IMG/VR virus record: IMGVR_UViG_2703719367_000015
Direction: 5' to 3' (one strand)
Length of the DNA: 4,481 nucleotides
From: a virus
Taxonomy: Duplodnaviria > Heunggongvirae > Uroviricota > Caudoviricetes
Each line of letters starts with the position of its first letter. Positions within the stretch are counted from its first letter, which is position 1. The notes beneath the pieces were generated by a model, which was not told the DNA's origin, searched no databases, and saw only the letters and a program-made list of their open reading frames with translations. The position numbers were made by a program, and so were the translations under genes. Below, piece by piece: positions 31 to 4,399 of the stretch.

Positions 31-453
31 ATGTTTCTGAAAACAGAACAATTTGAATATAACGGTGTGTCCGTCACGCTTTCCGAATTGTCTGCGCTGC
101 AGCGGTTTGATTATATAAAGTTTGTTTCAGACGCAGAACAACAGGAGACAACGAAGCATGATGTCGTGCACATTAACCAGCGATATCTGGAAACGGCATC
201 CCTGCTTGTGGCGATGTCGCTATGGCATTCCCATTCCCTCAAAGGCACTCTGGCCTCTCCGGAGACAGAGATGCAGCAGATCCGCCGTGAAGTGATGCTG
301 GGATGGCCTGCTGATGCACTGAATCAGGCAACGAACCGGGTGCTTTATCTTTCAGGTATGCTGGATAACCGGCACGATGCCGATCCTGAACAAACCGGTA
401 AAGCAGAAGCGACTGAGTCGGTAACATCAAAAAAGCATTCGAAGGCGAGCTGA
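31..453 (+). CDS. G: Tail assembly chaperone G (lambda gpG family)
   Basis: 140-aa ORF with strong SD. N-terminus MFLKTEQFEYNGVSVTLSELSALQR and the internal ...LLVAMSLWH... motif match my recollection of lambda gpG. Sits immediately upstream of the T frame and contains the slippery heptamer near its 3' end. Stop TGA 451-453. Confidence 0.9.
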   Translation: MFLKTEQFEYNGVSVTLSELSALQRFDYIKFVSDAEQQETTKHDVVHINQRYLETASLLVAMSLWHSHSLKGTLASPETEMQQIRREVMLGWPADALNQATNRVLYLSGMLDNRHDADPEQTGKAEATESVTSKKHSKAS

Positions 454-893
454 ACTTTGTCCTGAAACTGGCGCGAGAGATGGGGAGACCCGACTGGCGC
501 GCCATGCTTGCCGGGATGACATCCACCGAATATGCCGACTGGCGACGTTTTTACTGCACGCATTATTTTCAGGATACCCAACTGGACGCTCATTTTTCCG
601 GGCTGATGTACGCCGTACTCAGCCTGTTTTTTGGCGATCCGGATATGCATCCGGCGGATTTCAGTCTGCTTGCTCCAGCGTGTGAGGAAGAGCAGACGGA
701 GATGCCGGACGAGGAAGAAATGCTGATGCAGAAAGCGACAGGAGTTGCCGGAGGCGTCCGGTTCGGAGGGGACGGAGGGCGCGATATTTCACCTTCTGCG
801 GATGTGGTGGATGTCAGCGAGGATGATGTTGCATTAATGATGGCTTCAGCGGGGATTTCCGGAGGTGTGAGATATGTCCCAGCCAGCGGGTGA
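31..893 (+). CDS. GT: Tail assembly chaperone G-T fusion, made by -1 frameshift (join 31..435, 435..893)
   Basis: Predicted junction reads ...ESVTSKK / AFEGELNFVLKLAREMGRPDWRAMLAGMTSTEYADWRRFY..., which matches the lambda gpGT junction and T portion as I recall them. The T frame has no SD or convincing start of its own. Stop TGA 891-893. Confidence 0.85.
429..435 (+). promoter_or_regulatory. Programmed -1 ribosomal frameshift slippery heptamer A AAA AAG (G to G-T recoding site)
   Basis: In the G frame the codons are tcA AAA AAG (430-432, 433-435). The -1 frame is open from 417 (after TGA 414-416) through 893, and G stops at 451-453, so this is the only X XXY YYZ heptamer inside the 417-453 overlap window. 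Confidence 0.8.
435..893 (+). CDS. T: T portion of the tail assembly chaperone (expressed only as the G-T fusion; automated callers would likely annotate it as 480..893 from the internal ATG)
   Basis: -1 frame relative to G; translation (...MGRPDWRAMLAGMTSTEYADWRRFYCTHYFQD...FSGLMYAVLSLFFGDPDMHPADFSLL...GGVRFG...GGVRY...) is lambda gpT-like with an acidic patch (EEEQTEMPDEEEM). Confidence 0.8.
   Translation, partial: AFEGELNFVLKLAREMGRPDWRAMLAGMTSTEYADWRRFYCTHYFQDTQLDAHFSGLMYAVLSLFFGDPDMHPADFSLLAPACEEEQTEMPDEEEMLMQKATGVAGGVRFGGDGGRDISPSADVVDVSEDDVALMMASAGISGGVRYVPASG
861..866 (+). promoter_or_regulatory. Shine-Dalgarno sequence (GGAGGT) for H
   Basis: GGAGGT at 861-866, 7 nt upstream of the ATG at 874; lies inside the 3' end of the T frame. 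Confidence 0.6.
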
Positions 894-3375
894 TCTGGTT
901 ATTGATTTGAGTCTGGATGCGGCCCGGTTTGATGAACAGATGGCCCGGGTACGCCGTCATTTTTCCAGTCTGGAGGCGGATGCCAGAAAAACCGCCAGTA
1001 CTGTTGAACAGGGGCTGAGCCGACAGGCGCTGGCGGCACAAAAAGCCGGGATATCAGTCGGACAGTATAAGGCTGCCATGCGCACACTGCCCGCACAGTT
1101 CACGGATATTGTCACTCAGCTTGCCGGTGGTCAGAATCCCTTCCTTATCATGCTGCAGCAGGGGGGGCAGATCAGCGATTCATTCGGTGGACCGCTCAGC
1201 CTGCTTACCCTGCTGAAGGAGGAACTTCTCGGGATCAGGGATGCCTCTGAATCATCAGAGGAGTCGCTGTCAGATACGGCAAATGCACTGGCTGAAAATG
1301 CCCGGAATGCCGGTGAGCTGGGACGATTTATGTCGGTGGCCCGTGTGGCGGCAGGTGGCGGGGTTGCCGTACTGGCCGCGCTTGCTGCCGCCGCCTGGCA
1401 GGCAGAGCAGGCTGACCGGGCCTTATTGCGTTCACTGATCCTGACCGGAGGGGCGGCTGCCACCACAACGGCAGAATTGTGGAAAATGGCCGGGGTGATC
1501 AGCGATGAAGCCGGTGGTGGTATCAGACAGGCGGCAGAAAATCTGGCCCGTCTGGCAGAAAGCGGGAAATATACCGCCGGGCAGCTACGGATCATGGGGG
1601 AAACCTCTCAGAGATGGCTGCAGACGGTGGGGGACGATGCCGGGAAGGTGGAAAAAGCCTTTGAAGGGATTGCAGCAGATCCGGTGAAGGCGCTGGCCTC
1701 CCTGAATCAGCAGTATAACTTCCTGAGCGTTTCCCAGTTACGCCATATTGATGAGCTTGAGCGCACGAAAGGTAAACAGGTTGCGGTGACGGAGGCGATG
1801 TCCCTGTTTGCGGATGTCATGAATGCACGTCTGGAGCAACTTGATAAAGCGGCCACGCCGGTGGAAAAAATCTGGGACGATGTTAAAACCTGGACTTCTG
1901 ACGCATGGGCATGGATAGGTGATCATACACTGGGGGCACTCAGTCTGATCACTGACGTGGTGGCCGGAACCGTTGAACAAGTGAAGCTGCTGCTTGTGCA
2001 GGGGGATCTGGCGCTGGCTGAATTTATTCAGTCAGCCTGGGAAACGACAAAGAATGTGCCCGGCGTTGGTGCGTTGTTTGGTGAACTGGCAGAAGAGAAC
2101 CGCGTATTTATTGAGAAAACAAAACGCGATGAACTGGCGCTGAGAAAATCCATTGCGGAACGGGATGCGCGTATACGCCAGGGGGAAATGGGGTACATCA
2201 ACCGCTCGCGTGCAACAGGCGTCAGCAAAGGTCCGGGGCAGCAGGAAGCCGTCAGCCGTCTGGCTGAAGAGCTGACAGGTAAAAAGCATACATCACCGAA
2301 AACGCGCTCTGCCGGGGAGAGGGAAGAGGAGCAGGCAAGAGAGGCTCTGCTTGCCCTTGAAGCTGAGCTCAGGACGCTGGAAAAACACAGCGGTGCGAAT
2401 GAGAAAATCAGCCGGCAGCGCCGTGATTTATGGAAGGCGGAAAATCAGTATGCGGTCCTGAAAGAGGCTGCCACGAAACGGCAGTTATCTGAGCAGGAAA
2501 AATCCCTGCTGGCGCATAAAGACGAGACGCTGGAGTACAAACGCCAGCTGGCTGAGCTGGGAGACAAAGTTGAACACCAGAAACGCCTGAATGAGCTGGC
2601 ACAGCAGGCGGTGCGGTTTGAAGAGCAGCAGAGCGCGAAGCAGGCCGCCATCAGCGCAAAAGCCCGCGGTCTCACTGACCGTCAGGCGCAGCGGGAGTCT
2701 GAAGCGCAGCGTCTTCGGGACGTGTACGGTGATAATCCGGATGCGCTGGCGAAGGCCACATCNNNNNNNNNNNNNNNNNNNNNNNNNNNNNNNNNNNNNN
2801 NNNNNNNNNNNNNNNNNNNNNNNNNNNNNNNNNNNNNNNNNNNNNNNNNATTCACCCGTTCGGTGCTGTCCATGATGACAGAAATCCTGCTTAAACAGGC
2901 CATGGTGGGCATTGTCGGGCGTATCGGCAGCGCCATTGGCGGTGCTTTCGGTGGTGGTGCATCTGCTTCCTCGGGGACGGCCATTCAGGCTGCGGCGGCG
3001 AACTTCCATTTCGCGACCGGAGGATTTACGGGGACGGGCGGCAAATATGAGCCTGCGGGGATAGTTCACCGCGGGGAGTTTGTTTTCACGAAAGAGGCAA
3101 CCAGCCGGATAGGTGTGGGGAATCTTTACCGTCTGATGCGCGGCTATGCGGAAGGTGGTTATGTGGGTGGTGCCGGAAGTCCGGCGCAGATGCGGCGGGC
3201 GGAAGGTATTAATTTTAATCAGAACAATCACGTGGTGATTCAGAACGACGGCACCAACGGACAGGCGGGGCCGCAGCTGATGAAGGCGGTGTATGACATG
3301 GCCCGCAAGGGGGCGCAGGATGAGCTCCGGCTGCAGTTGCGTGATGGCGGTATGTTATCGGGGAGCGGGCGATGA
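874..3375 (+). CDS. H: Tail tape measure protein (lambda gpH family); interrupted by an in-frame masked segment
   Basis: 834-codon ORF (833 aa). N-terminus (MSQPAGDLVIDLSLDAARFDEQMARVRRHF...QALAAQKAGISVGQYKAAMR) and C-terminal third (ALLALEAELRTLEKHSGANEKISRQRRDLWKAE...SVLSMMTEILLKQAMVGIVG...FHFATGGFTGTGGKYEPAGIVHRGEFVFTKEA...) closely match lambda gpH as I recall it. Has the hydrophobic segment, long coiled-coil-like charged region and glycine-rich C-terminal region typical of tape measure proteins. Start overlaps the T stop by 20 nt. Stop TGA 3373-3375. Confidence 0.92.
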   Translation: MSQPAGDLVIDLSLDAARFDEQMARVRRHFSSLEADARKTASTVEQGLSRQALAAQKAGISVGQYKAAMRTLPAQFTDIVTQLAGGQNPFLIMLQQGGQISDSFGGPLSLLTLLKEELLGIRDASESSEESLSDTANALAENARNAGELGRFMSVARVAAGGGVAVLAALAAAAWQAEQADRALLRSLILTGGAAATTTAELWKMAGVISDEAGGGIRQAAENLARLAESGKYTAGQLRIMGETSQRWLQTVGDDAGKVEKAFEGIAADPVKALASLNQQYNFLSVSQLRHIDELERTKGKQVAVTEAMSLFADVMNARLEQLDKAATPVEKIWDDVKTWTSDAWAWIGDHTLGALSLITDVVAGTVEQVKLLLVQGDLALAEFIQSAWETTKNVPGVGALFGELAEENRVFIEKTKRDELALRKSIAERDARIRQGEMGYINRSRATGVSKGPGQQEAVSRLAEELTGKKHTSPKTRSAGEREEEQAREALLALEAELRTLEKHSGANEKISRQRRDLWKAENQYAVLKEAATKRQLSEQEKSLLAHKDETLEYKRQLAELGDKVEHQKRLNELAQQAVRFEEQQSAKQAAISAKARGLTDRQAQRESEAQRLRDVYGDNPDALAKATXXXXXXXXXXXXXXXXXXXXXXXXXXXXXXFTRSVLSMMTEILLKQAMVGIVGRIGSAIGGAFGGGASASSGTAIQAAAANFHFATGGFTGTGGKYEPAGIVHRGEFVFTKEATSRIGVGNLYRLMRGYAEGGYVGGAGSPAQMRRAEGINFNQNNHVVIQNDGTNGQAGPQLMKAVYDMARKGAQDELRLQLRDGGMLSGSGR
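2763..2849. other. Run of 87 N (masked or unresolved sequence) inside H
   Basis: Directly visible. 87 = 29 x 3, and the H reading frame is continuous across it (30 X codons in the ORF track). Confidence 0.99.
3361..3365 (+). promoter_or_regulatory. Shine-Dalgarno sequence (GGGAG) for M
   Basis: GGGAG at 3361-3365, 6 nt upstream of the ATG at 3372; embedded in the 3' end of H. Confidence 0.55.
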
Positions 3376-3701
3376 AAACCTTTCGCTGGAAAGTGAAGCC
3401 GGATATGGAGGTGAACTCGCAGCCATCGGTGCGTGAAGTGCGTTTTGGTGACGGGTACTCACAGCGTATGGCGGCAGGGCTGAATGCTGACCTGAAAACA
3501 TACCGTGTGACGCTTTCCGTGACCCGGGAGGAGGCCCGGCATCTGGAAGCGTTCCTGGCAGAGCACGGAGGCTGGAAGGCATTTTTGTGGAAGCCACCCT
3601 ATGCATACCGGCAGATAAAGGTGACCTGTGCCGGGTGGTCTGCGCGGGTCGGGATGTTGCGCGTTGAGTTCAGCGCGGAGTTTAAGCAGGTGGTGAACTG
3701 A
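3372..3701 (+). CDS. M: Minor tail protein M (lambda gpM family)
   Basis: 109-aa ORF. MKTFRWKVKP...VRFGDGYSQR...LKTYRVTLSV...FLWKPPY...RQIKVTCAGWSARVGMLRVEFSAEFKQVVN matches lambda gpM in length and sequence as recalled. ATGA overlap with the H stop. Confidence 0.93.
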   Translation: MKTFRWKVKPDMEVNSQPSVREVRFGDGYSQRMAAGLNADLKTYRVTLSVTREEARHLEAFLAEHGGWKAFLWKPPYAYRQIKVTCAGWSARVGMLRVEFSAEFKQVVN

Positions 3702-4399
3702 TGCAGGATATTCACGAAGAAAGTCTGAACGAGTCGGTTAAATCAGAGCAGTCACCGCGGGTGGTACTCTGGGAAATCGACCTGACGGCGCAGGGCGGTG
3801 AGCGGTATTTTTTCTGCAATGAGCTGAATGAAAAAGGGGAGGCGGTTACCTGGCAGGGGCGGCAATATCAGGCATACCCGATTGACGGCAGTGGCTTTGA
3901 GATGAACGGGAAGGGCAGCAGTGCCAGACCGTCGCTGACGGTGTCGAATCTGTTTGGTCTGGTCACCGGGATGGCGGAGGACCTGCAGAGCCTGGTGGGG
4001 GCCACGGTGGTCCGCCGCCGGGTGTATGCCCGTTTTCTGGATGCGGTGAATTTTGTGGCAGGCAATCCTGAGGCAGACCCTGAGCAGGAGCTGACGGACC
4101 GGTGGGTGGTGGAGCAGATGTCATCGCTGACGGCCATGACGGCCTCGTTTGTGCTGGCCACACCGACGGAGACGGACGGAGCGCTGTTTCCCGGTCGCAT
4201 TATGCTGGCGAATACCTGTATGTGGACCTACCGCTCTGATGAGTGTGGTTACACGGGCGGGGCAGTGGCGGATGAGTTCGACAACCCCACCACGGATATC
4301 CGTAAGGACAGATGCAGCAAGTGCATGCGCGGGTGTGAGATGCGCAGCATGGTGGCTAATTTTGGCGGTTTCCTTTCCATTAATAAACTTTCGCAGTAA
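3701..4399 (+). CDS. L: Minor tail protein L (lambda gpL family; tail tip complex protein with a C-terminal cysteine cluster)
   Basis: 232-aa ORF. MQDIHEESLNE...VVLWEIDLTAQGGERYFFCNE...VTWQGRQYQAYPIDGSGFEMNGKG...FPGRIMLANTCMWTYRSDECGY...CSKCMRGC...NFGGFLSINKLSQ matches lambda gpL as recalled, with the same length. TGATG overlap with the M stop. Stop TAA 4397-4399. Confidence 0.93.
   Translation: MQDIHEESLNESVKSEQSPRVVLWEIDLTAQGGERYFFCNELNEKGEAVTWQGRQYQAYPIDGSGFEMNGKGSSARPSLTVSNLFGLVTGMAEDLQSLVGATVVRRRVYARFLDAVNFVAGNPEADPEQELTDRWVVEQMSSLTAMTASFVLATPTETDGALFPGRIMLANTCMWTYRSDECGYTGGAVADEFDNPTTDIRKDRCSKCMRGCEMRSMVANFGGFLSINKLSQ

What the first reader, a model, noticed from the sequence alone, without database searches (positions are those of the whole stretch)
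429..435. G to G-T programmed -1 frameshift uses A AAA AAG rather than lambda's G GGA AAG
The only slippery heptamer in the 37-nt G/T overlap window (417-453) is A AAA AAG, the same heptamer as the E. coli dnaX frameshift site, whereas lambda uses G GGA AAG (Levin, Hendrix and Casjens 1993). The recoding mechanism is conserved but the slip site is not, and A AAA AAG pairs with tRNA-Lys and is intrinsically very slippery. The G:GT ratio may therefore differ from lambda's roughly 30:1, which matters for tail assembly. No tightly spaced downstream hairpin is evident.
Basis: partly seen in the sequence, partly recalled or inferred. Interest (0 to 1): 0.5.

Follow-up and report, generated by a model that had tools for sequence, protein, structure and literature searches.

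The report
Prophage tail-chaperone G/GT frameshift site
This is the well-known ribosome-slippage site that lets a lambda-like E. coli O157 prophage make a little of a longer tail-assembly protein (GT) alongside the short one (G); it uses a known spelling variant of the slip sequence and is ordinary.

Summary
A_AAA_AAG (429-435) is in phase with gene G (31-453). It is the only canonical slippery heptamer in the 37-nt G/T overlap (417-453), and a -1 slip gives ...TSKK-AFEGEL.... The window is 100% identical over 1-900 to E. coli O157:H7 prophages.

G and T meet the curated lambda G and T family models. The heptamer sits at exactly the position of lambda's G_GGA_AAG. Only the P-site triplet differs; the A-site A_AAG, the pyrimidine 3' of it and the downstream T sequence are shared.

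In 227 related loci, 226 have an in-phase slip site there: G_GAA_AAG about 140, A_AAA_AAG 48, G_GGA_AAG 37, G_GGA_AAA 1. The variant tracks the G-body allele, and a mosaic joint lies at the slip site.

Independent initiation at ATG 480 is unlikely. It has no Shine-Dalgarno, the Met is Phe in relatives, and T-frame conservation starts right after the heptamer.

The suggestion that the G:GT ratio differs is not supported. Published E. coli measurements give the two heptamers near-equal efficiency (0.29 vs 0.28%, 4.3 vs 3.8%, 39 vs 43%). The dnaX stimulators are absent. A_AAA_AAG in O157 prophage tail chaperones is already catalogued. Low interest.

The parts
31..453 (+). Gene G, tail assembly chaperone (140 aa), zero frame
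   Evidence: ORF. PF06894 Phage_TAC_2 120 bits; TIGR01674 phage_lambda_G equivalog 118.6 bits against a cutoff of 74.45. Strong SD GGAGG, -10.8 kcal/mol.
414..416 (+). TGA that closes the -1 (T) frame upstream and sets the left edge of the overlap
417..453 (+). G/T overlap window (37 nt), where both frames are open
429..435 (+). Slippery heptamer A_AAA_AAG. The P-site codon is AAA (430-432) and the A-site codon is AAG (433-435). Both are read by tRNA-Lys.
   Evidence: In phase with G. Homologous position to lambda G_GGA_AAG. Present in 48 of 48 loci of this G clade.
436..436 (+). 3' context base C, directly after the heptamer
   Evidence: Always C or T in the 224 loci that carry an in-phase N_NNA_AAG. 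Atkins et al. 2016 report that 3' C is generally more shift-prone than U on A_AAA_AAG in E. coli.
435..893 (+). T segment, read in the -1 frame after the slip. It is the C-terminal 152 aa of the 287-aa GT fusion. Stop at 891-893.
   Evidence: TIGR01715 phage_lam_T equivalog 197.7 bits against a cutoff of 77.35, matching fusion residues 140-249. PF06223 43.9 bits. T-frame peptide conserved from the first codon after the heptamer.
480..482 (+). ATG that database annotation uses as the start of T; probably an internal Met of GT
   Evidence: PGAP annotates T from here. Anti-SD duplex only -3.0 kcal/mol, against -7.2 to -10.8 for G, H, M and L. The codon is TTC (Phe) in all seven homologues of the G_GAA_AAG group in alignment A2, namely phi80, mEp213, HK225, the Enterobacter phage, Gifsy-1, cdtI and the Providencia phage. 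The TIGR01715 match starts 11 residues upstream.
469..504 (+). Distal hairpin enclosing ATG 480. Predicted; not supported as a frameshift stimulator.
   Evidence: Predicted in the window and in lambda, z about -2. It starts 33 nt after the heptamer. The covariation term is 0.04 over 10 homologues, and the outer stem breaks in Gifsy-1 and cdtI.
874..3375 (+). Gene H, tape measure protein. This is the assembly partner that G and GT bind in lambda. It contains an assembly gap of N at 2763-2849.
   Evidence: PF06791 TMP_2 164.8 bits. Gene order V-G-T-H-M-L in the identical O157:H7 prophage.

Best explanation
The site is the programmed -1 ribosomal frameshift of a lambda-family tail assembly chaperone gene pair, in an Stx1-type lambdoid prophage of E. 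coli O157:H7.

Proposed mechanism. Most ribosomes read G to its stop at 451-453 and make the 140-aa chaperone G. A small fraction slips back one base. This probably happens when tRNA-Lys occupies both the P site (AAA, 430-432) and the A site (AAG, 433-435). Both tRNAs then re-pair with AAA AAA (429-434), and translation continues with GCA TTC GAA... in the T frame to 893. The product is a 287-aa GT fusion.

The driving feature is the A-site AAG-to-AAA shift of the single E. coli tRNA-Lys, which pairs better with AAA. That feature is the same as in lambda. The P-site triplet (AAA here, GGG in lambda, GGA in phi80, N15-like phages and Gifsy-1) is an interchangeable variant that travels with the G-body allele.

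The site has no dnaX-type stimulators. The expected efficiency is therefore low, a few per cent as in lambda, not 50-80% as in dnaX.

Shown here: the anatomy, the family membership, the positional homology, the conservation and the absence of stimulators. Inferred from lambda and published measurements: that GT is actually made, its level, and its role in bridging the tape measure protein H and the tail tube protein V.
For: - Identity. Positions 1-900 are 100% identical to O157:H7 prophages and 99.7% identical to Stx1a-converting phages. Gene order there is V-like, G, T, tape measure, M, L.
- Family. G and T exceed the curated equivalog cutoffs TIGR01674 and TIGR01715, and Pfam PF06894 and PF06223.
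- Phase and uniqueness of the heptamer.
- Positional homology. The heptamer aligns column for column with lambda's G_GGA_AAG.
- Junction peptides align: TSKK|AFEGELNFVLKLAREMGRPDW against lambda SAGK|VFDGELSFALKLAREMGRPDW and phi80 TAEK|ALASELKFVLNLAREFGRPDW. The G-frame tails diverge (HSKAS*, CSTVS*, PLPAS*, S*).
- Survey. 226 of 227 related loci have an in-phase slip site at this spot, with a 3' pyrimidine in the 224 that carry N_NNA_AAG.
- No independent T start. There is no ATG, GTG or TTG in the T frame between 417 and 480. ATG 480 has no SD and is Phe in all seven G_GAA_AAG-group relatives aligned.
- Published measurements. AAAAAAG and GGGAAAG are equally efficient in E. coli (PMC4066793 supplement). 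A_AAA_AAG tail-chaperone cassettes gave 6-7% (PMC3711429).
- Lambda biology of G and GT as summarised in PMC5009743.
Against: - No protein or ribosome data for this locus. GT synthesis, its junction and its level are inferred.
- The prophage copy could be defective overall, so the site may not be expressed in this genome.
- Database records annotate T as a free-standing ORF from ATG 480.
- The 3' base is C here and U in lambda. The P-site tRNA also differs. A modest difference in efficiency cannot be excluded.
Confidence: 0.9

Rival explanations
1. T is translated on its own from ATG 480, as RefSeq and GenBank annotate it, and no frameshift is needed.
For: PGAP and several GenBank records annotate T as a separate CDS from this ATG. 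ATG 480 is the first start codon in the open -1 frame.
Against: - No Shine-Dalgarno: -3.0 kcal/mol, against -7.2 to -10.8 for G, H, M and L.
- The Met codon is TTC (Phe) in all seven G_GAA_AAG-group homologues aligned, including phi80, mEp213, HK225, Gifsy-1 and cdtI. Annotated T starts there fall elsewhere.
- T-frame amino-acid conservation begins immediately after the heptamer, 15 codons upstream of the ATG.
- The TIGR01715 match begins 11 residues upstream of the ATG.
- The ATG lies inside a predicted hairpin.
- From memory of Levin et al. 1993: in lambda, T is made only as GT.
Confidence: 0.03
2. The frame change is made by RNA polymerase slipping on the A6 run (transcriptional slippage), not by the ribosome.
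For: The site contains a homopolymeric run of six A (429-434). Poly-A runs are known slippage sites (PMC3711429).
Against: - Antonov et al. describe transcriptional realignment at runs of A longer than 7 or T longer than 8. Six A is below that.
- Homologues make the same junction with only three or four A (GGGAAAG, GGAAAAG). The conserved feature is therefore the phased N_NNA_AAG, not run length.
Confidence: 0.03
3. The site works like dnaX: a high-efficiency frameshift (tens of per cent) that gives a G:GT ratio very different from lambda's.
For: Same heptamer as dnaX. P-site re-pairing is perfect (AAA to AAA). The 3' base C is reported as generally more shift-prone than U on A_AAA_AAG. A distal hairpin exists at 469-504.
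Against: - dnaX needs its stimulators. My control recovers them in dnaX (SD duplex -7.4 kcal/mol at a gap of 7-9 nt; hairpin -18 kcal/mol at a spacing of 5 nt). The window has a -4.0 duplex and no proximal hairpin.
- The distal hairpin starts 33 nt downstream, is equally present in lambda, and shows no covariation.
- The bare heptamer gives about 0.3% in E. coli, the same as GGGAAAG.
- Measured A_AAA_AAG tail-chaperone cassettes gave 6-7%.
Confidence: 0.06
4. The site is real, but its efficiency is modestly higher than lambda's (about 2-fold) and is co-adapted with this G allele.
For: The heptamer type tracks the G-body allele. The 3' base is C, against U in lambda. Another A_AAA_AAG tail-chaperone family gave 6-7%, against about 4% for lambda (PMC3296357).
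Against: Heptamer efficiencies are equal in a common context. The 6-7% figure comes from a different G family, where the heptamer is followed directly by a TAG stop. No measurement exists for this site.
Confidence: 0.25

Closest known systems
Bacteriophage lambda G/GT programmed -1 frameshift (Levin, Hendrix and Casjens 1993; Xu, Hendrix and Duda 2004, 2013, 2014)
   Same: - Same gene families: TIGR01674 G and TIGR01715 T.
- Same gene order, between the major tail gene and the tape measure gene.
- Slip site at the homologous codon pair.
- Same A-site A_AAG and a 3' pyrimidine.
- Same 5-codon G tail ending in AGC TGA.
- T 68-70% identical in protein.
- No close stimulatory structure.
   Different: - The P-site triplet is AAA (Lys) instead of GGG/GGA (Gly), so both slipping tRNAs are tRNA-Lys.
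- The 3' base is C instead of U.
- The G body is only about 45% identical.
- The overlap is 37 nt instead of 64 nt.
A_AAA_AAG tail assembly chaperone of O157 Sakai prophage Sp9 (ECs1801; cluster A_AAA_AAG_25 of Sharma et al. 2014; GeneTack programmed-frameshift cluster 10)
   Same: Same host lineage. Same heptamer, in phase, at the end of the chaperone gene. Downstream -1 frame ORF of the same T family, PF06223.
   Different: The G part belongs to another family (PF06222 Phage_TAC_1) and has no detectable similarity to the window's G (E = 0.99). The heptamer there is followed directly by the TAG stop. G is 124 aa and GT 226 aa.
phi80, N15-like phages, HK225, Gifsy-1 and cdtI G/T sites (G_GAA_AAG)
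   Same: Homologous G and T, the same junction position, the same A_AAG and a 3' pyrimidine.
   Different: The P-site codon is GAA, which would re-pair on GGA. This is not a perfect X_XXY_YYZ heptamer. T is 25-48% identical.
E. coli dnaX tau/gamma frameshift
   Same: Identical heptamer A_AAA_AAG and a tandem tRNA-Lys slip.
   Different: dnaX has an upstream SD-like AGGGAG and a strong hairpin 5-6 nt downstream, and shifts at 50-80% to a shorter product. The window has neither stimulator, and the shift extends the protein.

Membership tests
Lambda-type G/GT tail assembly chaperone with programmed -1 frameshift | Upstream ORF is a lambda G homologue | tested here: met
   TIGR01674 equivalog 118.6 bits (cutoff 74.45). 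PF06894 120.2 bits (cutoff 27).
Lambda-type G/GT tail assembly chaperone with programmed -1 frameshift | Downstream ORF in the -1 frame is a lambda T homologue that overlaps the end of G | tested here: met
   TIGR01715 equivalog 197.7 bits (cutoff 77.35). PF06223 43.9 bits. The -1 frame is open 417-893 and overlaps G by 37 nt.
Lambda-type G/GT tail assembly chaperone with programmed -1 frameshift | Located between the major tail gene and the tape measure gene | tested here: met
   H (PF06791) starts at 874. In the identical O157:H7 prophage, a V-position tail protein gene ends 13 nt before G.
Lambda-type G/GT tail assembly chaperone with programmed -1 frameshift | In-phase slippery sequence within the overlap, at the position of lambda's proven site | tested here: met
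   A_AAA_AAG at 429-435 aligns with lambda G_GGA_AAG.
Lambda-type G/GT tail assembly chaperone with programmed -1 frameshift | T segment lacks its own translation start | tested here: met
   No start codon in 417-479. ATG 480 has no SD and is not conserved.
Lambda-type G/GT tail assembly chaperone with programmed -1 frameshift | A GT fusion protein is made at a low fixed ratio to G, and both are required for tail assembly | not testable with these tools
   Needs western blot or mass spectrometry and genetics. Inferred from lambda (PMC5009743).
dnaX-type stimulated -1 frameshift | A_AAA_AAG heptamer in phase | tested here: met
dnaX-type stimulated -1 frameshift | Internal Shine-Dalgarno-like stimulator about 10 nt upstream | tested here: not met
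   The best anti-SD duplex upstream is -4.0 kcal/mol, against -7.4 for the dnaX control.
dnaX-type stimulated -1 frameshift | Stable hairpin 5-8 nt downstream | tested here: not met
   436-475 has an MFE of -4.1 kcal/mol, z = +1.74. The only strong hairpin starts 33 nt downstream and has no covariation support. The dnaX control gives -18 kcal/mol at a spacing of 5 nt.

The most novel reading that the evidence does not exclude
Both slipping tRNAs here are tRNA-Lys(mnm5s2UUU), whereas lambda uses tRNA-Gly plus tRNA-Lys. GT production in this widespread Stx-prophage tail module could therefore be more sensitive than lambda's to the host's tRNA-Lys U34 thiolation or charging state. That is the TusA/MnmA versus IscU competition that Maynard et al. 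2012 showed sets lambda's G:GT ratio. Alternatively, the site could run at a roughly 2-fold different set-point that is co-adapted with the G-body allele it always travels with. Either way the P-site triplet would be a tuning knob rather than a neutral variant.
Probability: 0.2. Interest if true: 0.35.

Novelty: already known. Interest (0 to 1): 0.12.

Why it matters
The finding has little importance as a discovery. The G/GT frameshift has been textbook since 1993. Its conservation with varied slip sequences has been known since 2004. A_AAA_AAG tail-chaperone sites in O157 prophages were catalogued, and cassettes from a related tail-chaperone cluster measured, in 2013-2014.

The practical value is for annotation. 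RefSeq and GenBank records for this very common prophage module show T as a free-standing ORF from ATG 480 (514 E. coli records have a best match at 99% identity or more). The 287-aa GT fusion is therefore missing from protein databases.

The family-wide picture could be a modest natural data set for how P-site identity tunes an unstimulated -1 frameshift. In that picture the A-site A_AAG and the 3' pyrimidine are invariant, the P-site triplet varies, and a mosaic joint lies at the slip site.

Tried and rejected
1. A downstream stimulator. The proximal region has no stable hairpin. The distal hairpin at 469-504 looked interesting because it is conserved in lambda and encloses ATG 480. However, it starts 33 nt from the heptamer, has a covariation term of 0.04, and has broken outer pairs in Gifsy-1 and cdtI. 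I rejected it as a stimulator. Its conservation is explained by the conserved peptide LAREMGRPDWRA.

2. An upstream SD-like stimulator. None was found.

3. Other slip sites in the overlap. None was found.

The survey therefore rests on IMG/VR and phage records. It is seeded by three queries, so the variant counts are not population frequencies.

5. I took ECs1801 (Sharma's A_AAA_AAG_25) at first for the same gene. It is a different G family, PF06222, joined to the same T family. It shows precedent for the heptamer, not prior description of this exact site.

6. Xu et al. 2004 and 2013 could not be read because they are not held. I could not check whether VT1-Sakai-type G/T is in their table.

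7. The supplements of Antonov 2013 did not reveal which heptamers the two tested tail-chaperone cassettes carried.

8. I expected lambda's RefSeq record to carry a joined G-T CDS. In this copy it does not.

Full report
**What the window is.** The 4,481-base window is the G-T-H-M-L part of a lambda-like tail module. The ORFs are G (31-453), a -1 frame ORF open from 417 to 893 (T), H (874-3375, interrupted by N at 2763-2849), M (3372-3701), L (3701-4399) and the start of K.

Pfam assigns these to Phage_TAC_2 (G), Phage_tail_T, TMP_2, Phage_min_tail and Phage_tail_L. NCBIfam's equivalog models for lambda G (TIGR01674) and lambda T (TIGR01715) are both passed well above cutoff.

Positions 1-900 are 100% identical to prophages in E. 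coli O157:H7 chromosomes and 99.7% identical to Stx1a-converting phages. 514 E. coli records have a best match at 99% identity or more. In the identical O157:H7 prophage the module follows the head genes and a V-position tail gene.

- The G frame reads ...GTA ACA TCA AAA AAG CAT TCG AAG GCG AGC TGA, so 429-435 is A_AAA_AAG in phase.
- The -1 frame has TGA at 414-416 and is then open to 893. The overlap is 417-453, 37 nt.
- It is the only in-phase X_XXY_YYZ heptamer in the overlap and in all of G.
- A -1 slip gives ...VTSKK|AFEGELNFVLKLAREMG... and a 287-aa fusion.

AAAAAAG occurs once in the window against 0.57 expected, so its presence alone is not significant. Its phase and location are. There are about 10 eligible positions out of about 8,950, roughly 6e-4 by my arithmetic. 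Its conservation is significant too.

**Relation to lambda.** Aligned with lambda, the heptamer falls column for column on lambda's G_GGA_AAG: TCAAAAAAGCATTCGAAGGCGAGCTGA against GCGGGAAAGTGTTCGACGGTGAGCTGA.

Only the first three bases differ. The A-site A_AAG, a pyrimidine 3' of it, the five-codon G tail ending AGC TGA, and the T-frame peptide are shared (window AFEGELNFVLKLAREMGRPDW, lambda VFDGELSFALKLAREMGRPDW). The statement 'the slip site is not conserved' should therefore be narrowed. The position and the A-site half are conserved; the P-site triplet is not.

**Family survey.** I gathered 227 loci. They are the window, named phages (lambda, VT1-Sakai, phi80, mEp213, HK225, Gifsy-1, cdtI, a Providencia phage and an Enterobacter phage) and IMG/VR contigs from three scans seeded with the T parts of the window, phi80 and Gifsy-1.

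For each locus I located the T frame, its upstream stop and the G stop, and listed in-phase sites.

| Slip site | Loci | Representative phages |
|---|---|---|
| G_GAA_AAG | about 140 | phi80, HK225, Gifsy-1, cdtI |
| A_AAA_AAG | 48 | the window, VT1-Sakai, Stx phages |
| G_GGA_AAG | 37 | lambda |
| G_GGA_AAA | 1 | IMG/VR locus L140 |
| none | 1 | IMG/VR locus L046, where a 31-nt deletion removes the site |

The base after the heptamer is C or T in all 224 loci that carry N_NNA_AAG. The sampling is seeded, so these are not population frequencies. They do show that the P-site triplet is the variable part of a conserved site, and that A_AAA_AAG is one of three common spellings.

**The variant travels with the G allele.** Loci with AAAAAAG have a G body at least 88% identical to the window's. 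Loci with GGGAAAG have a G body only 40-47% identical, but a T part 82-94% identical.

Nucleotide identity between the window and the E. albertii locus is 98-100% at 1-90 and about 40-62% over 91-450. It then jumps to 91-100% from 451 on. A mosaic joint therefore lies at or next to the slip site, which is also the G/T domain boundary.

**Is T translated independently?** This is unlikely.

- There is no ATG, GTG or TTG in the T frame between 417 and 480.
- ATG 480 has an anti-SD duplex of only -3.0 kcal/mol, against -10.8 (G), -10.8 (H), -7.6 (M) and -7.2 (L).
- The codon is TTC (Phe) in all seven G_GAA_AAG-group homologues aligned, including phi80, mEp213, HK225, Gifsy-1 and cdtI. Annotators chose other T starts there.
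- The TIGR01715 match begins at fusion residue 140, 11 residues before that Met.
- T-frame conservation starts at the first codon after the heptamer, whereas the G-frame tails diverge.

The separate-ORF annotation in RefSeq and GenBank is therefore best read as an annotation convention or gap.

**Stimulators.**

- Downstream, close: 436-475 folds at -4.1 kcal/mol, worse than shuffled sequence (z = +1.74).
- Downstream, distal: a stronger hairpin at 469-504 is predicted in both the window and lambda (z about -2). It begins 33 nt after the heptamer. Across ten homologues its covariation term is 0.04, and its outer stem breaks in distant relatives. Its conservation is accounted for by the conserved peptide.
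- Upstream: the best anti-SD duplex is -4.0 kcal/mol.
- Control: the same scripts recover the dnaX SD (-7.4 kcal/mol) and the dnaX hairpin (-18 kcal/mol, spacing 5 nt).

The site is thus lambda-like (unstimulated), not dnaX-like.

**Will the G:GT ratio differ?** The published systematic measurement in E. coli (Sharma et al. 2014, PMC4066793, supplementary table) gives near-identical values for the two heptamers in all three contexts.

| Context | AAAAAAG | GGGAAAG |
|---|---|---|
| No stimulator | 0.291% | 0.277% |
| IS911 stimulators | 4.26% | 3.80% |
| IS3 pseudoknot | 39.0% | 43.0% |

The main text names C_CC.A_AA.G, G_GG.A_AA.G and A_AA.A_AA.G together as the three best motifs. The heptamer change alone therefore predicts no difference.

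Context could matter modestly. The review by Atkins et al. 2016 reports that on A_AAA_AAG in E. coli a 3' C is generally more shift-prone than U. The window has C and lambda has U.

Antonov et al. 2013 measured 6-7% for two prophage tail-chaperone cassettes from a cluster selected for A-rich heptamers. Maynard et al. 2012 state about 4% for lambda. A difference of up to about 2-fold is possible but untested. A dnaX-scale difference is not expected.

**Is it known?** The mechanism and its conservation are established (Levin 1993 and Xu 2004, as summarised in PMC5009743).

Sharma et al. 2014 list a prophage cluster 'A_AAA_AAG_25, ECs1801, tail assembly chaperone [true]' beside 'G_GGA_AAG_4, gpG [true]', and link the former to GeneTack cluster 10.

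I checked ECs_1801 in Sakai prophage Sp9. Its heptamer is in phase and directly precedes TAG. Its G part belongs to a different family (PF06222, no similarity to the window's G). The downstream -1 ORF is the same T family, PF06223. So A_AAA_AAG driving G-to-GT in O157 prophages is documented.

I found no paper that names this particular site in the PF06894 G clade, and I could not read Xu 2004. Given identical copies in hundreds of genomes and a fully known mechanism, I rate it as already known in kind, with only an annotation gap.

**Residual idea.** With AAA in the P site, both slipping tRNAs are tRNA-Lys. Maynard et al. 2012 showed that U34 thiolation of this tRNA sets lambda's G:GT ratio and phage yield. 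This site might respond more steeply to that host variable. This is speculation and can be tested with reporters in tusA, mnmA and iscU mutants.

**Verdict.** The core interpretation is supported, and the functional extrapolation is not. The site is an ordinary member of a well-known system. Interest is low.

Noticed in passing
window 2763-2849: A run of 87 N lies inside the tape measure gene H. The identical O157:H7 prophage has a 2,613-nt H gene (L001 4874-7486), against 2,502 nt here. The gap therefore stands for about 198 nt of real sequence, and the window's H length (833 aa) is an underestimate.
   Followed up: partly
L046 (IMGVR_UViG_2869970738_000006), around 1190-1210: A 31-nt deletion (ATCAAAAAAGCATTCGAAGGCGAGCTGAACT) removes the slippery heptamer and the G stop. 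G then ends after a few out-of-frame codons and T cannot be reached. This is probably a defective prophage or an assembly error. It is the only one of 227 loci without a slip site.
   Followed up: partly
window about 91-450 versus 451-893: There is a mosaic joint at the slip site. Against GGGAAAG-type loci the G body is 40-62% identical in DNA, while the first 90 nt and everything from about 451 on are 87-100% identical. The heptamer's P-site triplet belongs to the divergent G module and the A_AAG to the shared T module.
   Followed up: yes
L085-L091, L093-L226 (phi80, mEp213, HK225, Gifsy-1, cdtI and IMG/VR relatives): The commonest slip site in the sampled family is G_GAA_AAG. This is not a perfect X_XXY_YYZ heptamer, because P-site tRNA-Glu would re-pair GAA to GGA with a middle-position G-U. 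One locus (L140) has G_GGA_AAA instead.
   Followed up: partly
window 469-504: A predicted hairpin of roughly -20 kcal/mol encloses ATG 480 and is also present in lambda. It is too far (33 nt) to stimulate the frameshift and has no covariation support. It could in principle mask the internal ATG from spurious initiation.
   Followed up: partly
window 480-893; L001 4480-4893; L002 1980-2288; L229 466-900: Public records annotate T as a free-standing CDS, with inconsistent starts among relatives, and none of those inspected shows a joined G-T product. This includes the lambda RefSeq copy held here. The GT fusion protein is therefore absent from protein databases for this module.
   Followed up: yes
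L227 15002-15681 (Sakai prophage Sp9, ECs_1801/ECs_1802): A second, unrelated chaperone family (PF06222 Phage_TAC_1) in the same host uses the same A_AAA_AAG heptamer, directly followed by TAG. It shifts into a T-family (PF06223) ORF, so the same T domain is combined with two different G families.
   Followed up: partly
window 1161-1167 and 3808-3814: There are other in-phase homopolymeric heptamers inside genes: G_GGG_GGG in H and T_TTT_TTC in L. There is no sign of an extended -1 ORF. The G7 run is a likely hotspot for sequencing or replication errors.
   Followed up: no
window 874-893, 3372-3375, 3698-3703: The gene junctions are tightly coupled. The H start overlaps the T end by 20 nt and has a strong GGAGG. 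H and M share ATGA. M and L share TGATG.
   Followed up: no
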